A DNA stretch of 64,000 nt from Mustelus asterias. Lineage: Eukaryota. The translations under genes were made by a program, and so were the position numbers. A model generated the notes under the pieces. It was not told the DNA's origin and searched no databases. It saw only the letters and a program-made list of their open reading frames with translations. Where the stretch lies: positions 372,001 to 436,000 of the forward strand of contig NW_027590215.1 of assembly GCF_964213995.1 (NCBI RefSeq), in the 5' to 3' direction. Below, piece after piece: positions 26,130 to 63,954 of the stretch; within the stretch, counting starts at the first letter, position 1; each line of letters starts with the position of its first letter.

Positions 26130-26131
26130 GT

Positions 26132-26352
26132 AATCCAGGAGAACTGGATTAATTGTTGGATTACACAGTGATATGTTACAGAGCAGAAATCCAGGGGAAC
26201 TGGATTAATTGTTGGATTACACAGTGATATGTTACAGAGTAGAAATCCAGGAGAACTGGATTAATTGTTGGATTACACAGTGATATGTTACAGAGTAGAA
26301 ATCCAGGAGAACTGGATTAATTGTTGGATTACACAGTGATACGTTACAGAGT
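26132..26352 (+). repeat. 56-bp minisatellite, 4 units
   Basis: AATCCAGGAGAACTGGATTAATTGTTGGATTACACAGTGATATGTTACAGAGTAGA; CACAGTG at 26164, 26220, 26276, 26332. Confidence 0.95.
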
Positions 26353-26883
26353 CTTAAAATCTGAAATAAAACAGTCAATGCCACAAATAGTCAACAGGCC
26401 CAGCAGCTTCTATGAAGGCAGAAACAGAGTGAAACATACAGCCAAACATCCATATGAATGAGGAGCAGCAGTGGACCATTGGGCCCCTCTGCTGCAGCAT
26501 TTGACAAGATCCCGACTGATCTGATTGTGGCCAGAACTCCATTTTTCTGTCTCCGCCCTCCCCCCCCGTCCCCTCTCCCCTCCCCCCACCCCCAAATCCT
26601 CTGACTCTCTTGTCAATCAGGAATCCATTTATTCAGTCTTAAAAATATTCAATGACTCTGTCTACACTGCTCTCTGGCGAAGAGAATTCCACAGACCAAA
26701 GACCCCCTGAGAGAGAGAGAAAAATCTCGTTCTCTCTGTCCCTAACGTCTCAAGCGCTCCCCAGAGCCACACAGGGAAAATCAGGATAAAAGCAAATTAC
26801 AGTGAATGCTGGAATCTGAAACCAAAAGAGAAAATGCTGGAAAATCTCAGCAGGTCTGGCAGCATCTGTCAGGAGAGAAAAGT

Positions 26884-26921
26884 GCTGACGTTTCGAGTCC
26901 AGATGACCCTTTGTCAAAGAC
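26884..26921 (-). ncRNA. Minimal hammerhead-like motif with U3-A8 core (PLE family 2)
   Basis: Minus strand TTGACAA-A-GGGTC-ATCTG-GACTC-GAAA-CG-TC-AGC. Confidence 0.5.
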
Positions 26922-29529
26922 TGACCTCTGAAGAATTGAGAGAGGGAGGTGGAGAAGAACAAAATGTAAGATCCGCAAACTGACAAAATGATTCACGGCC
27001 CAAGACCAAAGCGAGTGGTAATGGGACAAGTAAAGACACAAAAGATGTTCTGGATGAGGTGTGAATAGCTGGTGAGCAATAGTCTGAATGTAAAGTAAAC
27101 AAGAAGGAAATGAGGTGAAAAAAGCAACAACGAAACACAGATCACAATGCGGGCAGAGATTGTGGTGTAAAATTGTTGAGCTCAGTTTTGTTCTGAAGGC
27201 TGTAAAGTGTCTCTTTCAGTTGCGAGAAATAATATTATATTTCCCAGTTCCGATGACAGGTCACATTCAGTCTGTTTCTCTCTCCACAGAGGCTGCCTGA
27301 CTTGTTGAGTATTTCCAGCCAAAAGAGAAAACGCTGGAAAATCTCAGCAGGTCTGGCAGCATCTGTAAGGAGACAAAAAGAGCTGACGTTTCGAGTCCAG
27401 GTGACCCTTTTGACGAAAGCAACAACTTGCTTTCATTCATGAGTATTTCCAGCGTTTTCCGTTTTATGTCAAGCAGAGAATGTGTAAGAATTGTCACATC
27501 TGGAACAGATGTCTCTTACACAGGACACCCCAGCTCGGGTCTTGGGGGATTAACCGGAGAAGCTTTTTAAACTGAGGAGAGTAACTGCATTTGGGCGCTG
27601 ACTTTAAACAACATTAACAAGCCCGGGCTGCTGGAGAAACATTTGGGGATTTGTGAGCAGTCAGTTCCGGCTGGTTTGAAGTGAAATCCTGTCGGTGCTG
27701 CGGCAAATCTGAACTCAAACCAGACAAACTGGAACCGCTGGGTTAGAGATTCCGGGTGTTGGGATGTGGAGGCTGGGGGAGGGGGAGATGGCGGTAAAAC
27801 TCTGAGCCTGACTTCAGACAGGGTGAGCGGGGTACAGGGGAGGAATGACAGAGTTAATGTGGGAGTCAGGGACAATAGCAGAAGGTGGGAAGCTCTGGAA
27901 AGGAGCATTGAGGATAAAGGCCACCAAAGAATGCTTGTTTAAATGAAGATAAAAGCAAAATACTGCAGACGCTGGAATCTGAAACAGAAACAGAAAATGC
28001 TGGAAATCTCAGCGTCTGTGGAGAGAATAGAGTTAATGCTTCCAGTCTGGATGATCACAGATGCTGTCAGACCTGCTGAGGTTTTCCAGCACTTTCTGTT
28101 TTTGATTAACTGAAGGTTCAGCTCAGCAGGGAAAGAAGCACCGAACTGAACACACTGAACCCAGGGAGAGGGGGTGACCGAGGATAAGGGACAGGCGCAG
28201 CTCAGTGAGGCTCTGCAACGTCCATCAACACATCCACATTCAGACCTTAGAGCGCCAAGGGGGAGGGGAAGAAGAAACTATTTGGGACACAGCAGGAGGT
28301 CACCCCTCCCCCCACTCTGGGGTTCCACATCCCTCCCACACCTGGGCAAGGTTGGCTCAAGGTGCAGGAAGCTGCAAGCTGAGAGGCTGAGCTGTGAACT
28401 GGGCCGGGTTGGGGGTTTGAGTGACAGTCCTGGGGCTATTTCAGGACAGGAACTGCCACAGATTCCCTCTTTTTCCTGGGACGTTTCAGTGGAGCTGTGT
28501 TGGTGAGTGTTTGTAATCTCTGTCTCACTGTCTCGGTAATGGGGGTGGGTTGTAGATTGCTGTGAGTGTTAGACTAAATAACCTCTCCTCATGCTGCCAG
28601 TTCCAGTCTGCAGATTCCATTTCTCAGTCCAGTCTGCTGCTCTGTCTCTGTGTACTTTGCTGCAGTGCTCCACATTCTGAGCAACATCCAGCCCATTGTT
28701 ATCACCCCAAATTTGCGGCAAACTCTCTTCACTGTGGCACAGTGGTTCACACTGCTGCCTCACTGAGTCAGGGTTCGACTCCAGCCGTGGGTGTGTGACT
28801 GTCTGTGTGGAGTTTGCACAGTAAGGGTACAGAATATATTGTTGCGGTTGCAGGCAGGATGAAGAAAAAGGTCAGGATGGGGATTAGCAGAGTAAGTGCG
28901 TGGGGTTACTGGGATAGGAGGTGAGCCTGGGAAAGATGCACTCAGAGTCAGCAGAGACTCGATGGGTAAAATGGCCTCTTTCTGCACTGGAAGGATTCTA
29001 TGATTAGTGAATTACGGTGAACAACTTTTGAATGGAGGGATTTCTGAGGCGCAGAGCATTGTGGGAAATGTGACCGCCATTAGTCAATCCCTGACTCTAG
29101 ATGTTTCATTATAGACTGAGGGCAAGTCAGCAAACTGAGCCCTCAATTCTGTTTGTGACTCTGACAGGTTGCCTGGCCTGTTGAATATCTCGAGGATTTG
29201 TTCTTTTTGTCCCAGATACAGTCTCTACAGAGTTTCCTGTGTTATTGTTTTATAGCTTCGAATTTGGAAACACAGTTAGGAGCCGGTTTGAATCAGGCTG
29301 CGTTTTGGATGCAGAACTCAGTTCCTGGCCTCCTGCGTGTTTTTTTTTACTGTTGCTTCGGTCTGGACTCTGTTCATCATCTGTCTCTATAGGTTCTCTC
29401 TCAATCCCCTTTTTTCTGTTTTAAATCAGTTTCACAGGGACTAGAAGGGGACGATTTGCAGTCAGGAAACTGAAAGTAAATATCATATCAGGAACTGCCA
29501 TCATAACTGAATATCAGTGGATTTTGAAC

Positions 29530-30483
29530 ATGGAAGGAAAAAGCACCGTTCACAGTGGAGAGAAACCGTACACGGGTTCTGTGTGTGGACGAGGCTTCAG
29601 CCGATCCTCTGGTCTGGCAAAACATAAGTGCAGCCACTCCATGGAAAAACTGTGGAAATGTGTGGACTGTGGGAAGGAATTTAATTACCCATCCCAGCTG
29701 GAAACTCATCGGCGCAGTCACACTGGGGAGAGACCGTTCACCTGCTCTGAGTGTGGGAAGAGATTCACTCAGTCATCCAACCTACTTACTCATCAGCGAG
29801 TTCACACTGATGAGAGACCTTTTAAATGCTCAGACTGTGGGAAGTGCTTCAAAAGTTCTTGGGAACTGATGTCCCATCAACGTGTTCACACTGATGAGAG
29901 ACCTTTTAAATGCTCAGACTGTGGGAAGTGCTTCAAAAGTTCTTGGGGACTGATGTCCCATCAACGTGTTCACACTGATGAGAGACCGTTCAGGTGCTCT
30001 CACTGTGGAATTGGGTTCCAGCATTCACATAACCTTACTGTACACCAGCGAATTCACACTGGGGAGAGGCCATTCACCTGCTCCGAGTGTGGAAAAGGAT
30101 TCACTCGGTCATCCCAACTATTGATACACCAGCGTATTCACAATGGGGAGAGACCTTTTAAATGCTCTGACTGTGTGAAGTGCTATAAAAGTTCTGGTGA
30201 ACTGATGTCCCATCAACGTGTTCACACTGATGAGAGACCGTTCAGGTGCTCTCACTGTGGGACTGGGTTCAGGCGATCATATGATCTCATTCTACACCAG
30301 CGCACCCACACTGGGGAAAGGCCATTCACCTGCTCTGAATATGGGAAGGGATTCATTCAGTCCTCCAGTCTGCTGAGACACAAGCGAGCTCATGCTGGGG
30401 AGAGACCATTCAGCTGCTCTGAGAGTGGGAAGAGATTCACTCAGTCATCCTACCTGCTTAGACACCAAAGAATTCACCAGTAA
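29530..30483 (+). CDS. C2H2 zinc-finger protein, 8 intact plus 3 degenerate fingers
   Basis: [13 protein letters not shown] start; first and last two fingers have lost a Cys. Confidence 0.85.
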
Positions 30484-30779
30484 CCACAGTGATTGGAATC
30501 TGCTGTTAATCCTATCCAGGACTGTAATATGTTCATTGCGTTTGTTTTTGTTGATGTTAATGAACTCCAGCCAGTTATACGGTTTAATATTCTGAATAAA
30601 AGTCAAATCAATTATCTTTGTGTTCAGTACTGTGAATCTTTTTAATATCATCAGCACAACTGAATTCCTTCTGAGTTGCTCTCCCTTTGTCCCTCTCCCA
30701 TCTTTACCTCCCCCGCAAGTGCTCATTGGGAATAAAACTCACAATCTTCTTTGTCACTAAGTTTGAGACAATCCAATCA

Positions 30780-31140
30780 GCTGCCTCTACTGCTTCCCTC
30801 CTTCCCCTAACCCACTGGAACAAACCTCCTCTAACGCTGCCCTTTATCTGAGCTCTGAACTCTCATCTTTCTGCAGTTTCTCTCCTGCCTCCCCTCATGT
30901 CCTCTTAGCGCTCATCTTGCCCATGAGACCCATCTCTTGATCCCTCAATCCTTTTCCCACTGTACTACTGACAGCACAACTTCTCCATATCAGCTGATAT
31001 TGTCAATATCTTCCTCTCCTTCAAATCCGATATCATCACCCACTTCTCAATAAAATATCTTTGACACATGCCCTTGTAAACTACCATCCCATCTCCCTTT
31101 CCTCTCTAAAGTCCTTGAATGTTTTACCTTCCACATATTG
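30780..31140 (+). mobile_element. Old L2-like LINE RT fragment
   Basis: Decayed AAACTACCATCCCATCTC...TTCCTCTCTAAAGTCCTTGAA (NYxPIS..FLSKVLE). Confidence 0.5.
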
Positions 31141-31891
31141 TAACTTGTTTTCCCTTTCTCACTGTGTGTAGTAAAGTTTAATTTGTTTGTGCAGAATCTG
31201 TGGAATCTTTTGCCTTTATTCACTTGTTAAGTGTTTGAATCTCCACCTTTGTCAATTTTATACAAACTCACCCAAATCTAAAAACTATTTTGTGGGAATT
31301 GGGGGAATAGAACAGAAGATGGGTTTCTGCTGCTAAGTTACAATCTCAGCTGATGTTACTTCTGGGCAGGAAGGTCCCAGAATAAAACCCTGGCTCAATT
31401 GACCGTAACTTTCCCCACGATCCCCACCTTCTTGGTGCGTTTGGCCATCTTCCCGGATGGAGCAGAGAGGGCGGACATGAAAATACTGACAATAACACAA
31501 GATTCCTTCATTCCACACAATCACAGTGGCGAAGTGAGGTAAATGGCCTCTGCCTGGGAGATCACTGAATCCTCAGGCTACTGAAGGGTAATTTTCAAAC
31601 ATAGAAACGTTGGAGGATTGTGCTGCTGGATTTTTCTTGTTCCTATTTTTTTCATATTAACGCAGACGAATCTATTTAGAGAATTGAAACTTGCCTCAGA
31701 AATAGCAACAGGCGAACTCGAAGACAAACACATTCACAGAAATGCACTCTCAGACAGACACAGGCAAACTCGCACACACAGACATGCAGACAAAAAAACA
31801 CTCTGACTTCACAAATACACACACACTCACAACACAGAGACAGGCTGAGACCAATTTCAGTCCAAATAATCTGCTGGGCACTAAAATAATG

Positions 31892-33151
31892 TGAGAAGTC
31901 TCACAACACCAGGTTAAATTCCAACAGGTTTATTTGGTAGCACAAGCTACTAGCTTTCGGAGCGCTGCTCCTTCATCAGGTGACTGGGAGTTCTGTTCAC
32001 AAACAGGGCATATAAAGACACAAACTCAATTTACAAAATAATTTACATAATTTACATAATCCTGTTCATAAGAGCAGGATATGGTGCTCGACTCAACGAT
32101 CGACAGTTCTGACGCGCCACAGCGAAAAACCGCACCCACCTCCTCAGAAGACAAACACGGGACATTGTGGAAAGAGTACCCTTCATCGTCCAGTACTTCT
32201 CTGGAGCAGAGAAGCTACGACATCGTATCCGGAGCCTTCAACATGTCATTGATGAAGACGAACATCTCGCCAAGGCCATCCGCACACCCTCATTTCTTGC
32301 CTTCAAACAACCGCACAATCTCAAACAGACCATTGTCCGCAGCAAACTACCCAGCCTTCAGGAGAACAGTGACCACGACACCACACAACCCTGCCACAGC
32401 AACCTCTGCACAACGTGCCGGATCATCGACACGGATGCCATCATCTCACGTGAGAACACCATCCACCAGGTGCACGATACATACACTTGCAACTCGGCCA
32501 ATGTTGTCTACCTGATACGCTGCAGGGAAGGATGTCCCGAGGCATGGTACATTGGGGAAACCATGCAGACGCTACAACAATGGATGAATGAACACCGCTT
32601 GACAATCACCAGGCAAGAGTTTTCTGTTCCTGTTGGGGAGCACTTCAGCGGTCACGGGCATTCGGCCTCTGATCTTTGGGTAAGCGTTCTCCAAGGTGGC
32701 CTTCAAGACACACGGCAGTGCAGAGTCGCTGAGCAGAGACTGATAGCCAAGTTCCGCACACATGAGGATGGCCTCAACTGGGATCTTGGGTTCATGTCAC
32801 ACTATCCGTGACCCCCACGACTTGCCTGGGCTTGTAAAATCTCGCTAACTGTCCTGGCTGGAGACAATACACATCTCTTTAACCTGTGCTTAACCCTCTC
32901 TCCACTCACATTGTCTGTACCTTTAAGACTTGATTACCTGTAAAGACTCGCATTCCAACCATTATTTTGTAAATTGAGTTTGTGTCTTTATATGCCCTCT
33001 TTGTGAACAGAACTCCCACTCACCTGATGAAGGGGCAGTGCTCCGAAAGCAAATGGCTTTTGCTACCAAATAAACCTGTTGGACTTTAACCTGGTGTTGT
33101 GAGACTTCTTACTGTGTTTACCCCAGTCCAACACCGGCATCTCCACATCAT
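31892..33151 (+). mobile_element. 5'-truncated Penelope-like element: inverted pLTR, GIY-YIG endonuclease C-terminus, 3' pLTR; 13-bp TSD
   Basis: ORF 32167..32811 has NVVYLIRC...WYIGET; CACTAAAATAATG at 31879-31891 and 33152-33164; inverted pLTR 31892-32040 with intact hammerhead core on - (31946-31985). Confidence 0.92.
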
Positions 33152-33589
33152 CACTAAAATAATGACAGAAGCAAATTTGAAACTCAGTGCGTGGGTTTTA
33201 TTGTGAAATGAGAAAATGTATAAATATATCCTCTCGCTCGGGTTGGTTTGGAATTGATGATTTCTCTGCTGTCTATAAGGTTACTGAACAAATATTAAAT
33301 TGTAGAGACTGTGAAGTTTGAATTGTAATATCTATTGGTCTAAAATATCTGGGAGCAGCGTGGATGTGATGAAGGCTGGAATACAGACTGGGGGAATGAG
33401 GGTGAAACTGCTGTGCAGAGTGAATGGTTCTTGGTGTCGGGAAGGATGGATGGAGAGAGGGAGGGATGGTGAGATGGATGGAAGGAGGGGTGGATGGAGG
33501 GAGAGGGATGGATGGAGAGAGGGAGGGATGGTGAGATGGATGGAGGAAGGGATGGATAGGTAAATGTGAGAAGCTGAAGTTTACATTTG

Positions 33590-33840
33590 AAGAGGTTCTC
33601 AGAGTCTTTGAGCAGCTGAACTGCGGAAGCCTTCGTGCAGAGACTGTGCTGCTGCTGTTTCCCCTCCAGTCCACCAGGGTTCGCTGTAACCCTCTCGGCT
33701 GCTGCTCTCGCTGGTGTCACCTCTTGCCCGCTCCGGCCCGGCCGCTGTTCCTTGGCGGATGGGAGATCGGAGAGGAATTGGAGAAAGAGGTGGAACAGTA
33801 GGGCGCATGCGTAGCCGCCATGTTTGTGAGGGGCAATGTT
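33590..33840. promoter_or_regulatory. CpG-rich promoter (NRF1, YY1) upstream of the ZNF at 34588, with a divergent non-coding exon-like segment
   Basis: GCGCATGCG at 33803-33811, GCCGCCATGTT at 33814-33824; left part is an inverted paralog of 24430-24640. Confidence 0.6.
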
Positions 33841-34587
33841 TTGAAATTCTTCCCAGTGACAGAATTTGAACATCTTGTCCATCAAACTGCTTCACTCTTT
33901 CACTTCCAATTTCTTACTGATGAGCAGAACAACAAAATCAGGGCAGCGAAGATAATTTGTATTCATACTGTGTCTTTAACAAAATAAAATAGTCCCAGAC
34001 ATTTCACAAAATTGTTCCAGTTCTTTGAAAAAGGGTAGCACAGTGGTTAGCACTGCTGCCTCACAGTTCCAGTGACCCAGGTTCAACTCGAGCCTCGGGT
34101 GACTGTGTCTCCCCGTGTCTGTGAGGGTTTTCATCTGGGTGCTCCTGTTTCCTCTCACAGTCCAATGACGTACAGGCTTGGTGGATTGGCCATGATAAAT
34201 TGCCCCTTAGTGCCCCAAGATGTGTAGGTTCGGGGAAGTAACAGGATATGTGGGGCTCCGGGGATAGGACCTGGGTGCAGAGTCCAGATAAGTTGGCAGG
34301 TTTCTTTCCCTGAAGGACCATGAGTGAATCAATTGAATCCAGCAGTTTTCATGGTCACTTTTTCCTGGTGCCGGCCCCACAAATGACCAGATTCATTCAG
34401 CTCAATTTCACAACCTGTCTTTGTGCTTTTGTGGGTTCTCTCTCACTCCCTTTTTTCTGTTTTAAATCAATTTCACAGGATTTTAGAAGGGGACGATTTG
34501 CAGTTGGGAAACTGAAACCAAACATCACATCAGGGAATGATACAGTCGGCTAATTTATCGTAACCTGAATATTGTCATATTTTAAAC

Positions 34588-35289
34588 ATGGAAGAAAAAA
34601 GCACCGTTCACAGCGGAGAGAAACCCTACTCGTGTTCTGTGTGTGGTCAGGGATTCAATCGATCATCTGACCTGTCAAAACATAAATGCAGTTATGATGG
34701 GGACAAGCTGTGGAAATGTGAGGACTGTGGGAAGGGATTCAATTACCCATCCCAGCTGGAAACTCATCAGCGTGGTCACACCAGGGAGAGGCCGTTCACC
34801 TGCTCGGACTGCGGGAAAGGATTCATTAAGTCATCCACCCTGCTGACACACCAGCGCACACACACTGGGCAGAGGCCATTCACCTGCTCTATGTGTGGGA
34901 TGGGATTCACTCAGTCACCCACGCTGCTAACACACCAGCAAATTCACACTGGGGAGAGGCCATTCACCTGCTCTGACTGTGGGCAGGGATTCACTCACCA
35001 ATCCACCCTGCTGACACACCAGCGAGTTCACACTGGACAGAGACCATTCACTTGCTCTAGGTGTGGGAAGAGATTCACTCAATCATCAGCACTGCTCAGA
35101 CACCAGCGAGTTCACACTGGGGAGAGACTGTTCATCTGCAATGATTGTGGGAAGAGATTCACTCAGTCATCCAACCTGCTGACACACCAGCGAGTTCACA
35201 CTGGGAAGAAACCATTCACGTGTTCTGAGTGTGGGATGGGATTTACTCAGACATCCAACCTGCTGAGACACCAGCAAATTCACAATTAA
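34588..35289 (+). CDS. C2H2 zinc-finger protein, 7 intact fingers plus one atypical
   Basis: [14 protein letters not shown] start, TGERPF/TGQRPF linkers, acceptor TTTCACAG near 34478. Confidence 0.87.
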
Positions 35290-36319
35290 CTCCAGAGATT
35301 GGATTGTGTTGTCAATCAGATTGAGAACTGAGCTATATCCATTAGGATCTGATTCTGCTGATGTTAATAAACTTCAGGTCAGTTATAGAGGCTAATATTC
35401 TGGACAAAAATCAAATAATTTGTCTTTGATTTGATTTGATTTGTCTTTGATACCCACACAGACATGGAGGAAAGCTGCTGAATTGTCATAAAAACCTAAG
35501 TGGTATGCTGATGTCTGTCAAGAAAGGAAATCTGACACCTGGTCTAGAGTGGAGACAGCGAGAAGTAGAAGGGGCCGGGGTGAAGGAGAGGGATTTTATA
35601 CATCTAGAACTCAATGAGAACTTTGACAGCATCTCCCAAATCCTCAACCTCCACCACCTAGAAGGACCAAGGTAGCAGGTAGATGTGAACGCCATCACCT
35701 CCGAGTTTCTCTCCCCCAACTCGCACACAATCCTGACTTGTCTGATATCCAGTACTAAAAGGATTGTATTTGTCGGGTTCTCCGGTTCTCTTTTTGTTTG
35801 GGACCGATGTATCTCGTTCTGTCATTCCGCCTTGGTTTCTCTATCTCCCTTTGTCCTGCTTCTGACCGTCTCTGTCTTCACACTGGCTCTATGTTCTTCT
35901 GTTTCTCCCCTTTTCCCTAAAGTTCAGGGTTGAGACAATCCGATTTCTTCCACTCTCTCATTTCAACGAGTCCACTCAATTACTCATTATATTATCGCAG
36001 CAATAATTGATAACGTTAATAACCAGAACTTAAGGGGTAACATTACGATGGAAAGATTTAAATGCAAATAACTAAAGAATATAGGAAATGAATGTGAATC
36101 CAGGGTCATGTTTGCATCTTGTGTTGTTATTTTAGACTAGGCATCTTATCGGAATCTTGGTGGCTCCTTCTTGTTTAAAATGGGCGTTTATAACCACTAT
36201 TAATTGAATAAAGCGAATCGCCAGCAACAAAATAAAGTTGGGATTATCTCTCATGCATACGTTCAACTGCATCAAATTACATTGCAATAGTAAAAGTACT
36301 GCAAGAATAATCCGACATC

Positions 36320-36570
36320 GTGGCACAGTGGTTAGCCGTGCTGCGTTACAGCGCTGGGGACCTGGGTTCAGTCACTGTCTGTGTGGAGTCTGAAAATTCT
36401 CCCTGTGTCTGTGTGAGTTTCCTCCGGGTGCTCCGGTTTCCTCCCGCGGTCCGAAAGATGTGCTGGTAATGTGCATTGGCCATGCTAAAGTTTCCCTAAG
36501 TGTATCCGAACAGGCGCCAGAGTATGGCGACTAGGGGATTTTCACATTAACTTCATTGAAGTGTTGATGT
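36320..36570 (+). mobile_element. HE1-related SINE in the putative V leader intron
   Basis: SINE head, body and GGCGACTAGGGG tail. Confidence 0.85.
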
Positions 36571-36673
36571 GACTGAAAATTTCCAGCATTAAGCCGATGT
36601 TTGAATGATCAGTGTCTGTTTCATGGGCTCTCTTCGCTCTGAGATATTTAATATCTTCTGTGTTTTGTTACAG

Positions 36674-36977
36674 GGATAAATGTTGAAGCTTCAGTGTTTC
36701 AAGATCGATCTAAATGAAGTGTTCTGGAAGGACAGAGCATATTGTTGGACTGTAAATACTCGACAGCTGCTTTTCAAACTGTGTTCTGGTGCATCCACTA
36801 TCCCGGGCAAGCTCTGAGATATTTGATGAAGATATATAGCTCGGGCAATACCGATACGTCTCCGGATTTGTCAGATAGGTTCTCGGCTGCTTTGCACAAA
36901 GGAAACAACACTGTTCCTTTAAAAATCGCCAGGGCTCTTCTGCCTGACAGCGCCGTGTATTTCTGTGCCATGGAGTT
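36674..36977 (+). pseudogene. T-cell receptor alpha/delta-type V gene segment with in-frame stop in FR1
   Basis: Acceptor TTGTTACAG, then GINVEASVFQDRSK*SVLEGQSILLDCKYS...VFWCIHYPGQALRYLM...DRFSA...LKI...DSAVYFCAME; TGA at 36715-36717. Confidence 0.88.
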
Positions 36978-37017
36978 CACACTGGTGCAGAAATACAGCG
37001 AACTCCGCCCAAAAACC
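36978..37017 (+). other. 23-bp-spacer recombination signal sequence
   Basis: Heptamer CACACTG at 36978-36984 directly after YFCAME; nonamer CCCAAAAAC after 23 bp or CCAAAAACC after 24 bp. Confidence 0.8.
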
Positions 37018-38064
37018 CCAGACTGGGGGTTCCGGTTAGAGATCAGCAGAGGGCGCTCCCGCACCGATAAACAGAAACAATTATATCGTGTCCACAGAAA
37101 GAGTCACAAGATCATAAATGAAATATCAAATCAAAACAGAACACTCAACCTGAACAGCTGTGCCGCAGTTGGGTTTTTAACTTGCAACTATACTAAAAAT
37201 ACAGTTATGCTTCGTTCACTCATGCTCAGTCCTTTGATGATATTTCCTTGCTCGTGTAATTACTGTGTAGCACTTTCCCCATCTTGACTGTCCGTTTCGA
37301 GGTCGCTTTGCTCAAAGGGTCTGTTTGGTCAGAGTATTTTGCTGCCTAACGGACAGTCTATAGAACATATGCATTTCGCAAGGTTGCCATTGTGCTATTT
37401 AAAACAATCCCTGGGAACAAGTTACCATCAATGTTCATTCTCATTTTGTATATCTGTGAAATGTTTTCTGACACAATTCGTAAGCCAGGGCTTCCGCCTG
37501 ACAATAACAAGACCAGGGAATTCATTCCCACCCGTGCCCTTAACAATAAAGTGATTTTCCTAATGGGCACATTGATTAAATCCCAGATTGGGATATTTCT
37601 GTTCACTGAAAGGCAGGTCTCCAACATTGGGAAACATGTAAATGACGTGAGAGAATGCAATGACACTAGAACAGATTAATGAGAGTGCGGATTAGATTGA
37701 GACTCCTCTGTTTCATCTTCCCTTTTACAGAACGTACAGCAACAATGCGGGAAGGCAGAAGTTGGGTGTTCTGGGGAATTTCAGAGAAGCAATTGTGGAA
37801 TAAACACATTTAATCTAATTTCCCAATCGCAATTTCAACCTAAAGTTTAAAAGTATTCCGACATGAGAGAGCACTTCAAAAAGGAATTCAGATATGTTGA
37901 TGATGTGAAAAAGATTCAACACAGTATTAAACACAAAGCTGGTTTATTTTGACTTCTATTCAGAATATTAAACCACACAACTGGCTGGAGTTCATTATCA
38001 GCAAAAATCCAATTAACACATTACAGTCATGGATAGGATTAACAGCAGATTCCAATCACTGTGG

Positions 38065-38766
38065 TTACTTGTGAATTATTTGGTGTCTAAGCAGGTGGAA
38101 TGCCTGAGTGAATCCCTTCCCACATTCAGAGCAGATGAATGGCCTCTCCCCAGTGTGAACTCGCTGGTGTGTCAGCAGATTGGAGGACTGACTGAATCCC
38201 TTCCCACACTGAGAGCAGGTGAATGGCCTTTCCCCAGTGTGGGTGCGCTGGTGTACAATGAGGTTACATGAATGCCTGAACCTAGTCCCACAGTGAGAGC
38301 ACCTGAATGGTCTCTCGTCAGTGTGAATACGTTGATGGGACATGAGTGCATCAGAACTTTTGTAGCACTTCCCACAGTCTGAGCATTTAAAAGGCCTCTC
38401 ATCAGTGTGAACCCGCTGATGTGTCAGCAGGTTGGATGACCGAGTGAAGCCCTTCCCACACTCTGAGCAGATGAATGGCCTTTCCCCAGTGTGAATGCGC
38501 TGGTGTGACACCAGATTTCCTGACTCAGTAAATCCTTTGCCACACTCAGAGCAGGTGAATGGCCTCTCCCCAGTGTGAATGCGCCAATGAATTTTCAGCT
38601 GGAATGGGTAATTGAATTCCTTTCCACAGTCCACACATTTCCACAGTTTTTCCATGGAGTGACTGCACTTGTGTCTCGATAGGCCAGATGATCGGCTGAA
38701 GTCTCGTCCACACACAGAACACATGTATGGTTTCTCTCCACTGTGAACGGTGCGTTTTCCTTCCAT
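38065..38766 (-). CDS. C2H2 zinc-finger protein, 8 fingers; inverted paralog of 29530-30483
   Basis: [16 protein letters not shown]...[23 protein letters not shown] shared with 29530. Confidence 0.88.
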
Positions 38767-38974
38767 GTTCAAAATCCACTGATATTCAGTTACGATAAAT
38801 GAGATGACTGTCAGATTCTGATATGATATTTATTTCTTGTTTCCTCACTGCAAATCGTCTCATCCTAGTTCCTGTGAAATTGATTTGAAACAGAGAAAAA
38901 GTGGATTGAGAGAGAGCCCACAGAGACAGGTTATAAATAGAGTTCAGACTGAAGCAACAATAACAAAAACACTC

Positions 38975-39990
38975 AAAGAACAATACAGCACAGGAACAGG
39001 CCCTTCGGCCCTCCAAGCCCGCGCCGCTCCCCGGTCCAGGATTGAATCCTGAATCCAGGATCCCCGCCCAATTTTCCAGCCTATCTACATCCTAATATCC
39101 TATCCACCGAGCTGTCCCTCACAGCTACGATGCTTTGTTCATCACAACCTATTAACTCACCCCCACCCCCCCATTCCAGACCATGTGATCTCCAGGGAGA
39201 GGCGAAAACCCAGAGTGAAAACCCCAGGGCCAATATGGGGGAAAAAAATCTGGGAAATTCCTCTCCGACCCCCTGAGGTGATCGAAACGAGTCCAGGAGA
39301 TCACACTGGCCCTGATCGGAAAATGCTTCCCAACCCTATTCATTTCCACTTCCACGAACACCATATGAATTCCCTGCCCCCGAGACAGGTTCCCAACTAT
39401 CCGCAGTCTCGCTCTGTACTGGCACCAGCAAGATGATCATAGAATGAAGCCTTGAAATGAGAAACAAAGAACAATTAGCCCGCGCCGCTCCCTGGTCCAA
39501 ACTAGACCACTCTTTTGTATCCCTCCATTCCCACTCCGTTCATATAGCTGTCTAGATAAGTCTTAAACGTTCCCAGTGTGTCCACCTCCACCACCTTGCC
39601 CGGCAACACATTCCAGGCCCCCACAACCCTCTGTGTAAAATATGTCCTTCTGATATCTGTGTTAAACCTCCCCCCCTTCACCTTGAACCTATGACCCCTC
39701 GTGAACGTCACCACCGACCCGGGGAAAAGCTTCCCACCGTTCACCCTATCTATGCCTTTCATAATTTTATACACCTCTATTAAGTCTCCCCTCATCCTCC
39801 GTCTTTCCAAGGAGAACAACCCCAGTTTCCCCAATCTCTCCTCATAACCAAGCCCCTCCATACCAGGCAACATCCTGGTAAACCTCCTCTGTACTCTCTC
39901 CAAAGCCTCCACGTCCTTCTGGTAGTGTGGCGACCAGAACTGGACGCAGTCTTCCAAATGCGGCCGACTGCGTCCAGTTCTGGTCGCCAT
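38975..39990 (-). mobile_element. 5'-truncated CR1 with long 3' UTR and fold-back 5' junction
   Basis: ORF 39502..40023 CR1 C-terminus; insertion absent from the paralogous site near 29330. Confidence 0.88.
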
Positions 39991-40285
39991 AGGAGGCCAG
40001 GGACTGAGTTCTGCATCCAACACGCAGCCTGATTCAAACTGGCTCCGAACTAGTCAGCCTGTGTTTCTAATCTCGATACAATAAAACAATAGAACATAGA
40101 AACCCTACAGTGCAGAAAGAGGCCATTTGGCCCATCAAGTCTGCACCGACCACAATCCCACCCAGGCCCTACCCCATATCCCTCCATATTTACCCACTAA
40201 TCCCCCTAACCTACATGTACTGGAACAAAACTCTGTAGAGATTGTATCTGGAATAAAGAGAATAAATCTTGGAGATATTCAGCAG

Positions 40286-41194
40286 TGATGTGGAGATGCT
40301 GGCATTGGACTGGGGTAAACAGTGTAAGAAGTCTCACAACACCAGGTTAAAGTCCAACAGGTTAATTTGGTAAAAAAATCCATTAGCTTTCGGAGTGCTG
40401 CTCCTTCATCAGGTGAGTGGGAGTTTTTCACAAACAGGGCATATAAAGACACAAACTCAATTTACAAAATAATGATTGGAATGCGAGACTTTACAGGGGA
40501 TCAAGTCTTAAAGGTACAGACAATGTGAGTGGAGAGAGGGTTAAGCACAGGTTAAAGAGATGTGTATTGTCTCCAGACAGGACAGTTCATGAGATTTTGC
40601 AAGTCCAGGCAAGTCGTGGGGATTACAGATAGTGTGACATGACCCCAAGATCCCGGTTGGGGCCGTCCTCATGTGTGCGGAACTTGGCTATCAGTCTCTT
40701 CTCAGTGACTCTGCGCTGTCGTGTGTCGTGAAGGCCGCCTTGGAGAATGCTTACCTGAAGATCATCGGCCTCTGATCTTCGGGTAAGCGTTCTCCAAGGT
40801 GGCCTTCATGACACATGACAGCGCAGAGTCGCTGAGCAGAGACTGATAGCCAAGTTCCGCACACATGAGGACGGCCTCACCCAGGATCTTGGGGTCATGT
40901 CACACTATCTGTAATCCCCACGACTTGCCTGGACTTACAAAATCTCATGAACTGTCCTGTCTGGAGACAATACACACCTCTTTAACCTGTGCTTAACCCT
41001 CTCTCCACTCACATTGTCTGTACCTTTAAGACTTGATTACCTGTAAAGACTCGCATTCCAATAATTATTTTGTAAATTGAGTTTATGAAAAGAACTCCCA
41101 CTCACCTGACGAAGGAGCAGCGCTCCGAAAGCTAGTGGATTTTGCTACCAAATAAATCTGTTGGACTTTAATCTGGTGTTGTGAGACTTCTTAT
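40286..41194. mobile_element. Fold-back Penelope-like insertion (two inverted 3' ends), 12-bp TSD
   Basis: Arms meet at the 40765-40772 loop; GATATTCAGCAG at 40274-40285 and 41195-41206. Confidence 0.92.
41102..41138 (+). ncRNA. Minimal type I hammerhead ribozyme motif, intact core
   Basis: TCAC-CTGACGA-A-GGAGC-AGC-GCTCC-GAAA-GC-TA-GTGG; predicted cut after 41134. Confidence 0.72.
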
Positions 41195-43914
41195 GATATT
41201 CAGCAGGCCAGGCAGTCTCTGAGGAGTGACAAACAGAATTGAGGGCTCAGGTTGCTGACTTGCCCTCAGACTGCAATGAAACATTTAGAGTCAGGCACTG
41301 ACTAATGGCGGTCACAATTCCCACAATGCTCTGCGCCCCAGAAACCCCTCTATTCAATGGTTGTTCACCGTAATTCACTAATCACAGAATCCTTACAACA
41401 CAGAAGGAGGCCATTGGACCCATTGAGTGTGGACTGAACTTACGGCTGAGCACCTTTCCCAAGCACGCCCCCTATCCCTGTAACCTCACGCATTTTCCCT
41501 GTTAATCCCCCGACTGACCTTTCTCTTCACCCTACCGGTAACTGCAACAATATGTTCTGCACCCTACGTTTTTCCTTTCCCCCATGTACTTTCTCAACGT
41601 ACGTTTTGCCTGCATAGTACGGAAGAAATATTACTTCTCACTCTATTCCAGTACATGTGACAATAATAAATCAGATTAGAACCTATACATGGTGGGACAC
41701 TAAGGGACAATTGTAAGCATGGTCAATCCACTTAACCTGCACATCTTTGGACGGTGGAAGGAAACCGGAGCACCCGGAGGAAACCCACGCAGACACGGGG
41801 ACAATGCACAAACTCCACACAGACAGTGACCCGAGGCTGGCATTGAACCCGGGTCCCTGGCGCTGTGAGGCAAAAATGTTAACCAGTGAAGGCAGTTTGC
41901 CGCTTTTTCCAGGCGATAACAATGGGCTGGATGTTGCTCAGAACGTGGAGCACTGCAGCAAAGTACAGAGAGAGACAGAGCAGCAGACTGGGCTGAGAAA
42001 TGGAATCTGCAGACCGAAACTAGCTGAGGACAGGTTATCTCGTCAACACGCACAGCAATGTACAACCCACCCCCATTACCAAGACAGCGAGACAGAGGTT
42101 ACACTAAAATATTTATAGGATCAAGAGAAACCAGAGTGCACCAACACTCACCAACACAGCTCCACGGAAAAAAGGGAGAATCTGTGGCAGTTCCTGTCCT
42201 GATATAGCCCCAGGACTGTCACTCAAAGCCCCAACCCCGTCCAGTTCACAGCTCAGCCTCTCAGCTTGCAGCTTCCTGCACCTTGAGCCAACCCTGTCCA
42301 GGTGTGGGAGGGATGTGGAACCACAGAGTGGGGGGAGGGGTGACCTCCTGCTGTGTCCCAAATAGTCTCTCCTTCCCCTCCCCCTTGGCGCTCTAAGCTC
42401 TCAATGTGGATGTGTTGATGGACATTGCAGAGCCTCACTGAGCTGCGCCTGTACCTTATCCTGGGTCAACCCCTTCCCCTGGGTTCAGTGTGTGTGAACT
42501 CGCTGCTTGTTTACCTGCTGAACCTTCAGTTAATCAAAAACAGAAAGTGCTGGAAAACCTCAGCAGGTCTGATCACATCTGTGATCATCCAGACTGGAAG
42601 CATTAACTCTATTCTCTCTCCACAGATGCTGTCAAACCTGCTGAGATTTTCCAGCATTTTCTGTTTATGTTTCAGATTCCAGCATCCGCAGTGTTTTGCT
42701 TTTATCTTCATTTAAACAAACATTCTGTGAAGGCCTTTACCCCCATTGCTCCTTTCCAGAGATTCCCACCTTCTGCTATTGCCCCTGAATCCCACATTAA
42801 CCCTGTCATTCCTCCCCTTTACCCCACTCACCCTGTCTAAACTCAGGCTCAGAGTTTTCCCGCCATCTCCCCCTCCCCCAGCCTCCACATCCCAACACCC
42901 GGAATCTCTAACCCAGCGGTTCCAGTTTGTCTGGTTTGAGTTCAGATTTGCCGCAGCACCGACAGGATTTCACTTCAAACCAGCCGGAACTGACTGCTCA
43001 CAAATCCCCAAATGTTTCTCCAGCAGCCCGGGCTTGTTAATGTTGTTTAAAGTCAGCGCCCAAATGCAGTTACTCTCCTCAGTTTAAAAAACTTCTCCAT
43101 TTAATCTAAGGTATTATTCGCGCCAGACACAAATATAAAACAGTGAACATTATCCCCCCACCCAGACCCGAGCTGGAGTGTCCCGAGGAAGCGACATCTG
43201 TTCCGGGTGTGACAATTCTTACACATTCTCTGTGACATAAAACAGAAAACGCTGGGAATATTCATGAATGAAAGCAAATTGTTGCTTTTGTCAAGAGAGT
43301 CATCTGGACTCGAAACGGCAGCTCTTTTCTCTATTTACCGATGCTGCCAGACCTGCTGAGATTTTCCAGCATTTTCTGTTTTGGCTGGAAACACTCAACA
43401 AGTCAGGCAGCCTCTGTGGAGAGAGAAACAGACTGACTGTGACCTGTCATCGAACTGGGAAATATATTTCCCGCAACTGAAAGAGGTATCTTACAACCTT
43501 CGGAACAAAACTGAGTTCAACAATTTTACACCACATTCTCTGCCCCCTTTGCGTTCTGTGTTTCGTTGTTGCTTTTTTCACCTCTTGTTTTCTTTACTTC
43601 GTATTCAGACTGCTGCTATTCACACCTCATCCAGAACATCTTTTGTGACTTTACTTGTCCCATTACCACTCGCTTTGGTATTGAGCCGTGAATCATTTTG
43701 TCAGTTTGCAGACCTTTCATTTTGTTCTTCTCCATCTCCCTCTCTCCCTCCTTCACAGGCCTGGCTTTCTCTGGGTGGCACTGGAGAGCGAACTAGACTT
43801 GAGATGTTTGAGACAGAGAGATTGAAATGTTTTTTTCTCTCAGAGGGTCTTTGGTTTCTCTTCCCCAGAGAGCAGTGAAGACAGAGTCATTGAATGTTTT
43901 TAAGACTGAGTAAA

Positions 43915-44330
43915 TGGATAAAAGCAAATTACTGCGGATGCTGGAATCTGAAACCAAAAGAGAAAATGCTGGAAAATCTCAGCAGATCTGGCAGCATCTA
44001 TAAAGTGAGAAAAGAGTGGACGTTTCGACTCCAGATGACCCTTTGTCAAAGCTAAAAGGCATAGAAAGTGGGAGATATTTATACTGCAGGGTGAGGGAAT
44101 GAAAAATGAGTCACAGCCACAGAAACTCGGGTAAAGAGCTGCTAATGGCAGTCCATCGAGAGAATAAAGGGTGTGAATGGCCAACGGCAGAGAAGCTGAA
44201 ATCAGCTGTGACAGATGAAGATGTGGGGGGAGGGGTAGAGGGAATGGGAAGAAGAGAGGTAAAATGGGAAAAGGGGGGAAGGGAAATAAAAGGGGGAGAA
44301 AAGGTAAGGAAAGGATGGAGGTAGACAGGA
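43915..44330 (-). mobile_element. PLE-family-2 terminus with U3-A8 hammerhead-like motif (44014-44053)
   Basis: Minus strand AGCT-TTGACAA-A-GGGTC-ATCTG-GAGTC-GAAA-CG-TC; absent from the paralogous site near 26620. Confidence 0.6.
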
Positions 44331-44878
44331 AAGTGGAGTTGTGGTCGCAATCAGATCAGCCAGGATCTTATCAAATGCTGGAGCAGAGGGGCCACTGCTG
44401 CTCCGGATTCATGTGGGTGTTTGACTGTATGTTTCACTCTGTTTCTGCCTCCACAGAAGCTGCCGGGCCTGTTGACTATTTGGGGCTTTGACTATTTTTA
44501 TTTCAGATTTGAAGCATCTGCAGGATATTCTGTCCATGCAAACCCAACACACCTTTCATTGTTTAATGCAGAGCAGTGCATGTGCACGGTGCTCCCTGTC
44601 AACAGGAGAGAATGTTGTGAATTCCTATCCTGGATTGACTGGGATGGATTTTGTAAATTAATTTTATCTGGGTTAGAAGGGAAGGATTTACACACACAAA
44701 ATTCAAAACCCTGTTTCTTATTTCAATATTGGATATATGAGTCGCTGGTAAGGTCGCTGCATTTCAAACAGAGCTTGCGAGTGTTTTGAAGTGTTTTCTT
44801 TAAAAGTCCCCTTCACTCCTGTGCTACTCAGGAGAAGATTTCACATTCACATTCTCCAGGATAGAGGGGCAAGAGAAC

Positions 44879-45468
44879 GGGCGGCACAGTGGCACAGTGT
44901 TCAGCACCACTGCCTCACAGCACCAGGGAAATCATAGAAGCCCTACAGTACAGAAAGAGGCCATTTGGCCCATCGAGTCTGCACCAACCACAATCCCACC
45001 CCACCCCTACCCCCTTATCCCTACATATTTACCCGCTAATCCCTCTAACCTACGCATCTCAGGACACTAAGGGGCAATTTTAGCATGGCCAATCAACCTA
45101 ACCCGCACATTTTTGGACTGTGGGAGGAAACCGGAACACCCGGAGGAAACCCACGCAGACACGAGGAGAATGTGCAAACTCCACACACAGGGGTCCCAGG
45201 TTCAATTCTGGCCTCGGGTCACTGTCTGTGTGGAGTTTGCACATTCTCCCCGTGTCTGCATGGGTTTCCTCCAGGTGCCCTGGTTTCCTCCCACAGTCCA
45301 AAGATGTGTGGGCTAGGTTGATTGGCTGTGCTAAATTGCCCCTTAGTGTCAGGGGGATTAGCAGGGTAAATATGTGGCGTTACAGGAATAGGGCCTGGGT
45401 GGGATTGTGGTCGGTACACACTCGATGGGTCAAATGGCCTCCTTCTGCACTGTAGGGATTCTATGATT
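44879..45468. mobile_element. HE1 SINE (+) with a second HE1 (-) nested at about 44929-45190
   Basis: Head interrupted after CAGCACCAGGG and resuming at GGGTCCCAGGTTCAATTC. Confidence 0.85.
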
Positions 45469-46319
45469 CAGACCAATTGCAGGTGTAGCTTTCTTCCCAC
45501 CTCACTCTCACAGACTCCAGTGAAGACAGTGTGGAAAGGCTTTGGGACAAGATCAGATCTGTGATGCAGTGAACACCCACTCAGCTCATCGGGTTTGAAT
45601 TGCTCAGGCCGTCACACTGGCTCAACAAGAATGACAAAGAAATGAGCAAAATCAGAAAGTGTCTCTGGATTGAATGGAGTAGTATTCCTCCTATTGAACC
45701 ATTCACACTGATGTATCACTGACTGTACCTGTACCAGCTCTCTAACCTGACACATAGTCATATTATATGGATAAGTGGGCATAGCCTTTAGGTGTTGGTC
45801 TGTTAACTACAAGGGAACCATTTTCTTTAATTGATTCATGGACATGGGCAGCGCTGGCTGGCCAGCATTTATCGCCCATCCCCAGCTGCCCTTGAGAAGG
45901 TGGCGGTGAGCTGCCTTCTTGAAACCCTGCAGTCCATGTGCTGTGGGTTCACCCACAATGCCGTTAGGGAGGGAATTCCAGGATTATGACCCGGTGACTG
46001 TGAAGGAACAGTGATTCATTTCCAATTTAGGATGGTGAATGGCTTGGAGGGAACTTGCAGGTGGTGGTATTCCCATGTATTTTCTGCCCTTCCGATGAAG
46101 GGTCATCTGGACTCAAAGCATTGGGTCTATTCACTCCCCCCAGGTGCTGTCCGACCTGCTGAGATTTTCCACCATATTCTGTTTTTGTTTCACATTCCTG
46201 CATCGGCAGTATTTTGCTTTTATCTTCTGTCCTTGTCCTTTTAGATGGAAGTGGTTGTGGCTTTGGAAGGTGCTGCCTCAGGAGCCTTGGTGAATTGCTG
46301 CAGTGCATCTTCCTTTAGC

Positions 46320-47635
46320 AATATACTATATCATCTCTCTGGCTTGTTCCACCAACCAAGATCCATACATTATACATTCAGTAGATTCACTTAATACAAT
46401 TTTACTTTCTTTAATAATTTGATTGATCATTTGTACGTGAGACTTTAGGGCCTGACCATATGTTGTAAATGTGTGGTTAAGTTCCGACCTTAAGAGTGGC
46501 TAAGTTAATGGTATTAACAACCCTGGTGTTAAAAGCTGTTGCAGCATCATTCATTATACTCCGTTACCTGTCTGACATTTTGGATATCATTCCCCTTCCT
46601 AATGTGGTTTTGGATAACATCCAGATGAAGATGCTGAGGGGGATTGAGCTTCCATCTTAACGTCCTCCTGATACAATAGCCATGGTACAGGTGCACTTTT
46701 CACTTCTTTTTCATCATTGTCCCAGGTCCGCAGCATATTCTTCACCGTGTACGTAACAGTCCTGATCCTTCTCAGCTTCTTCCGTTATCTGGGACTCTGA
46801 GCTTCACCGAGTTATGAGAAAACCATTTGACTTTTTAGCAAAAACGTTTATTATTTTATTTGTGCCACAAATAGGCTTATATTAACACTGCAATGAAGTT
46901 CCTGTGAAAATCCGTGCCTGTTCAGGTACACTGGGGGAGAATTTAGTATGGCTAATTCAACTAACCAGCACGTCTTTCGGACTTTGGGAGGAAACTGGAG
47001 CACCCGGAGGAAACCCACGCAGACACGCGGTGAAAGTGCAAACTCCGCATATAGTACCCAAGCCAGGAATTGAACCCGGGTCCCTGGCGCTGTGAAGCAG
47101 CAATGCTAACCACTGTGCCCCACCATGCCGCCCGTTTGCATATTCAATACAACTGACCTTATCCACTGTAGTGTATGGTCCCTTATACAGGGGTCCAAAC
47201 ACATCTCCCTTTGCACAATTTCTTACCCTCACTTGGTCTCCACACTCATGTGGTTCGATGGGGCTAATAGGGACCTACTCCAGATACTCATGAGAACCAG
47301 TGGAAGTTCTTCAATCCACTTTGTGCTGTTCCATCCAGTTATTTTCTGAGAACGAGCTTCATGTGCGGTTCATTCTTTCGACAATTCCCAGCAATTGGTG
47401 TGAGTTATTTGCCATCTCCCTCCTTTCAATTTTCCAATTAAACAAAAGCACGGAGGAACAAACTGTTCTCTGGAGCATTCCACATTGCAATGACTCAGCC
47501 AAAGTCAACTTCCCAACCCATCAGCAACTTCTTTTCATACAGAATAAATTGTTGTTCCCTTTGAAATTTGCTATTCTTGTATCTGTCATGTAAAGTGAAA
47601 AAGCTTCTGCAGCATGTCTCATTTTATTTGACTCA
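46320..47635 (-). mobile_element. Decayed LTR-retroelement / endogenous retrovirus relic (integrase core and C-terminus, possible env remnant), interrupted by a SINE at 46850-47133
   Basis: Minus-strand GIVERMNRT, KWIEELPLVLMSI, VRVRN...FGPLYKGPYT. Confidence 0.7.
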
Positions 47636-63318: not shown

Positions 63319-63397
63319 GAATCTCTCTCCACATCATGGAATCTCTCTCCACAGTTGCTGTCAGACTTGCTGAGGTTTTGCAGCATTTTCTGTTTTG

Positions 63398-63918
63398 AAG
63401 TCAGTGCTTTGCTGTGTTGTCTCTGTGCTCCATCTCCACTCTGATTGTATTGGAGCCTGTGTGTGTCATTGTTACACTCAGAGTAAGTCAGTGCTTTGCT
63501 GTGTTGTCTCTGTGCTCCATCTCCACTCTGATTGTATTGGAGCCTGTGTGTGTCATTGTTACACTCAGAGTAAGTCAGTGCTTTGCTGTGTTGTCTCTGT
63601 GCTCCATCTCCACTCTGATTGTATTGGAGCCTGTGTGTGTCATTGTTACACTCAGAGTAAGTCAGTGCTTTGCTGTGTTGTCTCTGTGCTCCATCCCCAC
63701 TCTGATTGTATTGGAGCCTGTGTGTGTCATTGTTACACTCAGAGTAAGTCAGTGCTTTGCTGTGTTGTCTCTGTGCTCCATCCCCACTCTGATTGTATTG
63801 GAGCCTGTGTGTGTCATTGTTACACTCAGAGTAAGTCAGTGCTTTGCTGTGTTGTCTCTGTGCTCCATCCCCACTCTGATTGTATTGGAGTCTGTGTGGG
63901 TCATTGTTACACTGAGAC
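63398..63918 (+). repeat. 87-bp minisatellite, about 6 near-identical units
   Basis: GTCAGTGCTTTGCTGTGTTGTCTCTGTGCTCC...ACACTCAGAGTAA; 29-aa periodicity in three ORF frames. Confidence 0.95.
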
Positions 63919-63954
63919 TCTGTCACTGTTATTATTGGACAAACAGCAAGCTAC

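What the first reader, a model, noticed from the sequence alone, without database searches (positions are those of the whole stretch)
36674..37017. Lone TCR alpha/delta-type V segment with RSS embedded in a zinc-finger cluster
A complete V exon (both Cys, the Trp, DSAVYFCA) with a recognisable 23-RSS sits between the 3' ends of two convergent ZNF genes, between the arms of an inverted duplication. No other V, D, J or C was seen in 64 kb. It has one FR1 stop and WC for WY but no frameshift. It is either an orphon carried by ZNF-cluster duplications or part of a dispersed antigen-receptor locus interleaved with ZNF genes. In the second case V(D)J events would delete or invert ZNF genes in lymphocytes, and the pseudo-V could be a conversion donor.
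Basis: partly seen in the sequence, partly recalled or inferred. Interest (0 to 1): 0.7.

Follow-up and report, generated by a model that had tools for sequence, protein, structure and literature searches.

The report
Dead shark T-cell receptor V segment
This is a broken shark T-cell receptor variable gene piece (stop codon, lost leader exon) that likely died in a V-gene neighbourhood and was later joined to zinc-finger DNA and copied in blocks, which is ordinary decay, although the locus it belongs to has two separate alpha-chain cassettes whose use would delete or flip intervening zinc-finger genes.

Summary
The V exon is real: a TCR alpha/delta-type V (Pfam V-set) between two convergent ZNF exons in a shark genome. 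Two corrections: the RSS spacer is 24 nt, not 23, and the gene is not complete. Its leader and proximal promoter are gone, replaced by a SINE beside a 554-nt inversion. The same dead allele (TGA, WC, 24-nt spacer, no leader) stands at 12 places. Seven lie beside another V; five, including this one, lie between ZNF genes. Breakpoints suggest it died first, then joined ZNF DNA and spread in a 20.6-kb duplication. Copies decay neutrally and gave no tracts to 23 intact paralogues. A 99.7% identical copy lies on a 20-Mb sequence holding Ig-like C exons, dispersed V segments, TCR-delta cassettes and a J-alpha/C-alpha array, so the wider locus is dispersed and ZNF-interleaved. Dispersed V segments are published (Flajnik 2025), V(D)J loss of ZNF genes has a human IGL precedent, and this scan noted V-among-ZNF and 19 C-delta on other DNA. 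Less ordinary: two C-alpha cassettes (74% identical), one behind at least 270 kb of gap-free ZNF DNA with no V. No RNA was available to test usage.

The parts
36674..36977 (+). TRAV/TRDV-type V exon, pseudogene (TGA 36715-36717; WC at 36787-36792)
   Evidence: 84-88% aa to intact paralogues
36978..37017 (+). RSS: heptamer CACACTG, 24-nt spacer, nonamer CCAAAAACC (intact family: 22-nt spacer, ACAAAAACC)
37044..37058 (+). CTCF-like motif 26 nt behind the nonamer (label by resemblance to a recalled consensus; binding untested)
   Evidence: present in 30 of 30 family loci printed; position
36572..36673 (+). 3' remnant of the leader-V intron with intact acceptor
36320..36570 (+). High-copy SINE-like repeat standing where promoter, leader exon and 5' intron lie in intact paralogues
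   Evidence: (83-84% matches on many contigs)
35765..36318 (-). Upstream flank of the V gene, inverted relative to intact paralogues
37018..37866 (+). 3' flank from the V locus; ends at a join to ZNF 3' DNA
35470..35760 (+). ZNF-type 3' flank joined to the V module at about 35760-35765
34564..35286 (+). C2H2 ZNF exon, 7 fingers, open frame
38068..38829 (-). C2H2 ZNF exon, 8 fingers, open frame
37867..43768 (-). Right arm of an older inverted ZNF duplication (partner 26916-30683, 82-84%)
26241..46817 (+). 20.6-kb recent segmental duplication shared with G000:C71:13.893-13.915 Mb (97-99%); overlapping blocks on C89, C109 (99%) and C106 (about 95%)

Best explanation
It is a dead TCR alpha/delta V pseudogene that likely lost its leader and gained its stop while still beside other V genes, was then likely joined to zinc-finger 3' DNA, and was copied passively in recent block duplications of the shark antigen-receptor region. 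Shown: the lesions (no leader or proximal promoter, SINE plus inversion, TGA, WC, 24-nt spacer), 12 copies of the allele, two genomic settings, both junctions, and the 20.6-kb shared block. Inferred: the order of events (V-neighbour copies keep 35 more bases of the inverted piece and the original V-locus 5' flank, whereas ZNF-type copies are cut inside it), that contig C183 belongs to the same chromosome as C71, and that the segment makes no receptor chain. The junctions lie 0.85-1.2 kb from the RSS, so ordinary germline rearrangement rather than RAG is the likely mover.
For: Lesions. SINE-junction allele at 12 places, 3 on C71; 12 of 12 have TGA, WC and a 24-nt spacer, 5 of 12 have a second insertion inside the exon, 7 of 12 have a V neighbour 3-6 kb upstream and no ZNF array within about 10 kb, 5 of 12 lie between ZNF arrays. 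The 7 unsplit dead copies form one branch, 100/100 (the 5 split copies were not in the tree). pN/pS against the intact majority 0.71-0.79 for 4 dead copies, 0.44-0.49 for two open-frame relatives (small counts). Variable sites among the 12 copies: exon 29 of 304, non-SINE flanks 165 of 1327, p = 0.17. In 524 of 670 kb of C183 scanned: 46 ZNF arrays, this V, one decayed V fragment, no J, D or C; no C-alpha or C-delta match anywhere on C183. A contig of public run X1 spans the SINE join and the TGA with 2 other letters, neither in the TGA (may be the source sample).
Against: The RSS is only weakened: 7 of 53 stop-free V exons scanned on C232 and C546 also have 24-nt spacers, and the CTCF-like motif and splice acceptor are intact, so a rare non-productive join is not excluded. 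On the 3' side the ZNF-type copies keep more of the ancestral V flank (to 37866) than the V-neighbour copies (to 37747), and the copies are mosaics, so the history is not a simple line. C183 is not linked to C71 by contiguous sequence, and 146 kb of it were not scanned.
Confidence: 0.88

Rival explanations
1. The segment is dead as a gene, but its RSS is still cut by RAG now and then, giving non-productive V-J-alpha joins that delete or invert megabases of ZNF genes (for the C71 copy, a 4.47-Mb deletion to J-alpha).
For: Heptamer CAC and the nonamer A-tract are intact; 24-nt spacers occur on 7 of 53 stop-free V exons; CTCF-like motif kept; the C71 copy (+, 13.905 Mb) points at the J-alpha array (+, 18.372 Mb). 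Measuring pseudogene V use from rearranged genomic DNA is an established approach (PMC4657264, abstract).
Against: Promoter lost, and germline transcription helps RSS access (recalled); spacer 24 plus a changed first nonamer base; no J on scanned C183; no rearranged contig seen, though the runs looked like DNA.
Confidence: 0.15
2. The pseudo-V serves as a gene-conversion donor for functional TCR V genes.
For: No frameshift in 7 of 12 copies; the dead copies exchange sequence among themselves (C71:9.43 Mb and C210 differ at 17 of 304 exon sites but at 1 of 554 upstream and 1 of 330 downstream); shark TCR-alpha is mutated by AID (PMC5931798, passages).
Against: Only 2 of 23 intact paralogues share even one of the 22 dead-fixed bases, none a tract; 5 of 12 copies are split by an insertion; exon not conserved over flanks. 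Germline only; somatic use untested.
Confidence: 0.04
3. The C183 copy is a true orphon on a ZNF cluster away from the antigen-receptor chromosome.
For: No J, D or C in 524 kb scanned and no C-alpha or C-delta on the contig; placement unknown.
Against: Its closest copy (99.7%) lies on C71 among V, Ig-like C, TCR-delta and J-alpha segments; other copy-bearing contigs (C89, C96, C106, C109) also hold V-RSS, C-delta or Ig-like C matches.
Confidence: 0.15
4. Part of the copy number is assembly redundancy (uncollapsed haplotypes).
For: C183, C109, C89 and C71:13.90 Mb are 99.4-99.7% alike over 18-20 kb.
Against: C183 and C71 share only 20.6 kb and then diverge; three copies lie on C71 itself at 93-100%; four near-identical copies exceed two haplotypes.
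Confidence: 0.2
5. It is a non-rearranging IgSF V-set exon.
For: Top PDB hits by E-value are multi-domain antibody constructs.
Against: The exon ends at an RSS with no G strand; paralogues have split leader and RSS and lie 5' of J-alpha on C546; the best single-domain PDB hits are TCR V-alpha.
Confidence: 0.01

Closest known systems
Elasmobranch antigen-receptor complex (Flajnik et al. 2025, PMC12227049; read parts 1-2 of 8, term search, whole Table S1)
   Same: TCR alpha/delta V exons, some marked pseudo, scattered over many Mb between IgH clusters in both orientations (great white chr 27, 8.2-17.1 Mb); here 24 exact V-end+RSS matches over 4.5-17.8 Mb of C71.
   Different: The main text has no 'zinc' or 'ZNF'; Table S1 lists one TCR-alpha C model per species, whereas this genome has 2 C-alpha and 19 C-delta-like exons.
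V pseudogenes and orphons of IMGT (PMC7555362, passages)
   Same: Stop codon, missing leader, spread by duplication, no contribution to chains.
   Different: An orphon lies outside the main locus; at least 3 of 12 copies here lie on the sequence that carries J and C, so pseudogene inside a dispersed locus fits better.
Human IGL locus with ZNF280A, ZNF280B, PRAME and GGTLC2 between V genes (PMC9282919, whole letter)
   Same: Host genes, including ZNF genes, lie between V and J-C and are deleted by normal rearrangement.
   Different: Scale: 2 ZNF genes in human IGL, against at least 23 ZNF arrays directly 5' of the C71 J-alpha array; TCR rather than Ig; deletion here is inferred, not observed.

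Membership tests
TCR alpha/delta V segment | V-set Ig domain with both Cys and the Trp, ending before the G strand | tested here: met
TCR alpha/delta V segment | 3' RSS with about 23-nt spacer | tested here: inconclusive
   24-nt spacer, 2 mismatches; intact family has 22; census of 53 stop-free V: 23 x40, 24 x7, 22 x6
TCR alpha/delta V segment | Family members linked to J-alpha/C-alpha or D-J-C-delta | tested here: met
   family member at C546:35417, 5' of 134 J-like hits and C-alpha, across one assembly gap; three dead copies on C71
TCR alpha/delta V segment | Use in alpha versus delta chains | not testable with these tools
   no RNA run listed; no V-J contig shown
Functional V gene | Split leader and promoter | tested here: not met
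   absent within about 10 kb in 12 of 12 copies; present in 6 of 6 intact loci checked
Functional V gene | Open reading frame | tested here: not met
   TGA in 12 of 12 copies
Orphon (IMGT) | Outside the main locus | tested here: inconclusive
   C183 unplaced; 3 copies on J/C-bearing C71
Conversion-donor pseudogene | Donor tracts in recipient V genes | tested here: not met
   germline only: 0 of 23 with a tract; somatic repertoire not available
RAG-mediated germline transposition | Junction at an RSS heptamer | tested here: not met
   junctions at about 35765 and 37866, away from the RSS

The most novel reading that the evidence does not exclude
This dead V marks a shark TCR-alpha system that is not one translocon: two old, divergent J-alpha/C-alpha cassettes (74% aa), neither with TCR-delta in front in the DNA scanned, draw on hundreds of V segments of both orientations scattered through a ZNF-dense chromosome. 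For the C71 cassette every V-J join from upstream must cross at least 270 kb holding 23 ZNF arrays (nearest exact V-end+RSS 0.57 Mb away), so each alpha-beta T-cell clone would carry its own somatic deletion or inversion of dozens of ZNF genes.
Probability: 0.4. Interest if true: 0.62.

Novelty: new member of a known kind. Interest (0 to 1): 0.3.

Why it matters
The segment itself matters little; it is a dated marker of how V and ZNF DNA shuffle in the shark antigen-receptor region. If the wider layout holds, it would show long-range V-J-alpha joining across gene-dense DNA in the oldest jawed vertebrates, a duplicated C-alpha uncoupled from TCR-delta, and clonal loss of many ZNF regulators in normal T cells, on a much larger scale than in human IGL. 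That is testable by long-read sequencing of thymocyte DNA.

Tried and rejected
Expression: no RNA holder listed. Contigs of six runs laid on the window and on an intact paralogue ran through the intron and showed no spliced leader or V-J loose end in the rows displayed; they look like DNA, so this says nothing on usage. A pairwise hint of exon conservation (C183 vs C210: 5 of 300 exon, 37 of 430 3' flank) did not hold over all 12 copies and is explained by mosaic flanks. The exact 12-RSS pattern found only 21 sites but led to both J-alpha arrays. Two RSS patterns were uninformative for C71 (cut at 100 rows; gap too short). Searches for named rearranged chains of this V family gave only one gene model and unnamed or generic relatives, so no published shark V-family number could be assigned. 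V-family and C1-set genome searches are capped at 150 rows, so they give lower bounds, and IgH C exons on C183 are excluded only for the scanned part. C183 1-72 kb and 596-670 kb were not scanned. Ott et al. 2021 and Deiss et al. 2019 were not held and the Flajnik supplementary PDF was not read; they may describe ZNF neighbours or extra C genes. Paper searches for ZNF genes in the shark TCR/Ig region or duplicated shark C-alpha (listings only) showed no such report. RAG transposition as mover was rejected on junction position.

Full report
Observation. The window is G000:C183:372001-436000 of a 3.68-Gb genome. It is a shark: the closest named proteins are from Mustelus asterias (88% to this V, 99% to the C-alpha found here). 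An acceptor ends at 36673 and a V exon runs 36674-36977 with Cys 36751, Trp 36787, WC, Cys 36964 and a TGA at 36715-36717. It matches Pfam V-set at E 3e-13; the best single-domain PDB matches are TCR V-alpha. The RSS is CACACTG, 24 nt, CCAAAAACC, so not a 23-RSS; it is the only such site in the window, with none in 30 shuffles. Open ZNF exons flank it convergently and it lies between inverted arms of 82-84% identity.

The gene is more broken than reported. Of 30 loci fetched from 150 capped matches, 23 are open-frame paralogues with a 22-nt spacer and 7 share the TGA. Six of six intact loci checked have a 15-codon leader and a 193-194-nt intron. In the window about 350 nt holding promoter, leader and 5' intron are missing; a SINE-like repeat (36320-36570) stands there and the 554 nt upstream are inverted. 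The leader is not found in 264 kb around the window nor near any dead copy. WC alone is not a lesion marker: 1 of 23 intact loci has it.

History. The SINE-junction allele occurs at 12 places, three on C71. All 12 have TGA, WC and a 24-nt spacer; five have a second insertion in the exon; seven have a V neighbour upstream and no ZNF array within about 10 kb; five (C183, C109, C89, C71:13.90 Mb, C106) lie between ZNF arrays. The seven unsplit copies form one branch at 100/100 against 23 intact and 2 more distant relatives; the five split copies were left out. V-neighbour copies keep 35 more bases of the inverted piece and the V-locus 5' flank, while ZNF-type copies are cut inside it and joined to ZNF 3' DNA; the right join at 37866/37867 links V flank to the ZNF arm. 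I infer that the lesion preceded the 5' ZNF join. Neither join is at an RSS. A 20.6-kb block (26241-46817) was then duplicated, 97-99% identical on C71. Divergence is compatible with neutral decay: pN/pS 0.71-0.79 for four dead copies against 0.44-0.49 for two open-frame relatives (small counts); exon 29 of 304 variable sites against 165 of 1327 in non-SINE flanks, p = 0.17. Dead copies are mosaics of each other, but no intact paralogue carries a tract of the 22 dead-fixed bases; two carry one base each. A contig of run X1 reads the SINE join and the TGA, though it may be the source sample.

Surroundings. In 524 of 670 kb of C183 there are 46 ZNF arrays (112-438 kb), this V, one decayed V fragment at 577.8 kb and no J, D or C. 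C71 (20.4 Mb) carries many Ig-like C1 exons, 24 exact V-end+RSS matches between 4.5 and 17.8 Mb out of 341 genome-wide, control 0, a D-J-C delta-type cassette at 7.117-7.138 Mb (delta assigned from its 12/23 D segment), three of 19 such C exons, and 31 J-alpha with a C-alpha at 18.372-18.420 Mb. The C71 twin of this V points at that J array from 4.47 Mb; an intact V with a 23-RSS lies 98 kb from it among ZNF arrays. The dense V arrays are on other contigs: 200 kb of C232 held V exons on both strands with four ZNF arrays inside. A second J-alpha array (134 J-like hits) and C-alpha lie on C546, behind 10 V, four open ZNF arrays and one assembly gap. The two C-alpha are 74% alike in protein and about 76% in DNA; both have named gene models spliced J to C. 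C71:18.10-18.372 Mb is gap-free and holds 23 ZNF arrays, 16 with four or more fingers in one open frame, and no V; 18.46-18.56 Mb holds six arrays and no V.

Mechanism. Most likely (0.88) the segment does nothing: no promoter or leader, a stop, a weakened RSS. It travels with ZNF duplications. Rare non-productive cutting stays possible (0.15), since 7 of 53 stop-free V exons also have 24-nt spacers and a CTCF-like motif persists. Donor use is unlikely (0.04). No RNA was available, so all statements on usage are inferences.

Comparison with what is known. Flajnik et al. 2025 (PMC12227049; parts 1-2 of 8, term search, Table S1) report V exons of TCR alpha/delta type between IgH clusters and list scattered and pseudo V genes over about 9 Mb in great white shark; the text does not mention zinc fingers and lists one TCR-alpha C model per species. 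A review (PMC6795676, passages) describes shark TCR loci as translocons. Ott et al. 2018 (PMC5931798, passages) report V segments shared by alpha and delta chains. IMGT defines orphons as outside the main locus (PMC7555362, passages). Human IGL rearrangement deletes ZNF280A, ZNF280B and PRAME (PMC9282919, whole text). PMC12205992 (passages) gave only the general 12/23 rule and nonamer effects; that off-by-one spacers lower but need not abolish joining is recalled. Earlier notes of this scan report V islands among ZNF genes, 19 C-delta with none in front of J-alpha, and the CTCF motif on other DNA of this genome; I confirmed the count of 19 and the motif. None of the 13 different notes shown mentions two C-alpha, but only the first lines of a small share of the notes were visible.

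Verdict. Observation partly confirmed; the segment is an ordinary pseudogene, a new member of a known kind (interest 0.3). The notable by-product is the two-cassette, ZNF-wrapped TCR-alpha layout (probability 0.4, interest 0.62 if true), which depends on assembly accuracy and has no transcript or rearrangement evidence yet.

Noticed in passing
G000:C71:18371964-18419673 and G000:C546:137540-240422: Two divergent TCR-alpha J-C cassettes (31 and 134 J-like hits; C-alpha 74% aa); no D, delta-type J or C-delta match in the DNA scanned in front of either.
   Followed up: partly
G000:C71:18100001-18372000: Gap-free 270 kb directly 5' of J-alpha with 23 ZNF arrays and no V; nearest exact V-end+RSS at 17.805 Mb (-) and 17.085 Mb (+).
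   Followed up: partly
G000, 19 places incl. C71:7138081, 11043399, 12270544: 19 C-delta-like exons at 81-100% aa; several named models carry NAR-type double V domains.
   Followed up: partly
G000:C232:50001-140000 and 280001-390000: Dense TRAV/DV array in near-equal orientations (22 +, 21 - among stop-free V with a good RSS) with four open ZNF arrays inside.
   Followed up: partly
window 37044-37058: CTCF-like motif 26 nt behind the nonamer, present in 30 of 30 family loci.
   Followed up: partly
G000:C71:9.43 Mb vs C210:0.234 Mb: Dead copies nearly identical in both flanks but 17 of 304 apart in the exon: an exon-sized germline exchange between dead copies.
   Followed up: partly
L008-L030: A recently expanded intact V family (about 2.6% pairwise exon difference) has a fixed 22-nt RSS spacer; other families have 23 or 24.
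   Followed up: no
window 26121-26340: 56-nt tandem repeat whose unit holds a perfect heptamer and a weak 12-spaced nonamer-like run; no coding segment beside it, likely chance.
   Followed up: no
window 63311-63928: 87-nt tandem repeat, 97-100% between most units.
   Followed up: no
window SINE copies, e.g. 7094, 24945, 62039: The shark SINE begins with CACAGTG and gives weak 23-spaced nonamer matches (3-4 mismatches) in many copies.
   Followed up: no
G000:C183:577775-577954 (-): Decayed V fragment without a recognisable RSS, the only other V-like match in the scanned part of the contig.
   Followed up: no
G000:C71:18420325-18429890 (L063): About 10 kb of short-unit satellite directly behind the C-alpha Ig exon.
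   Followed up: no
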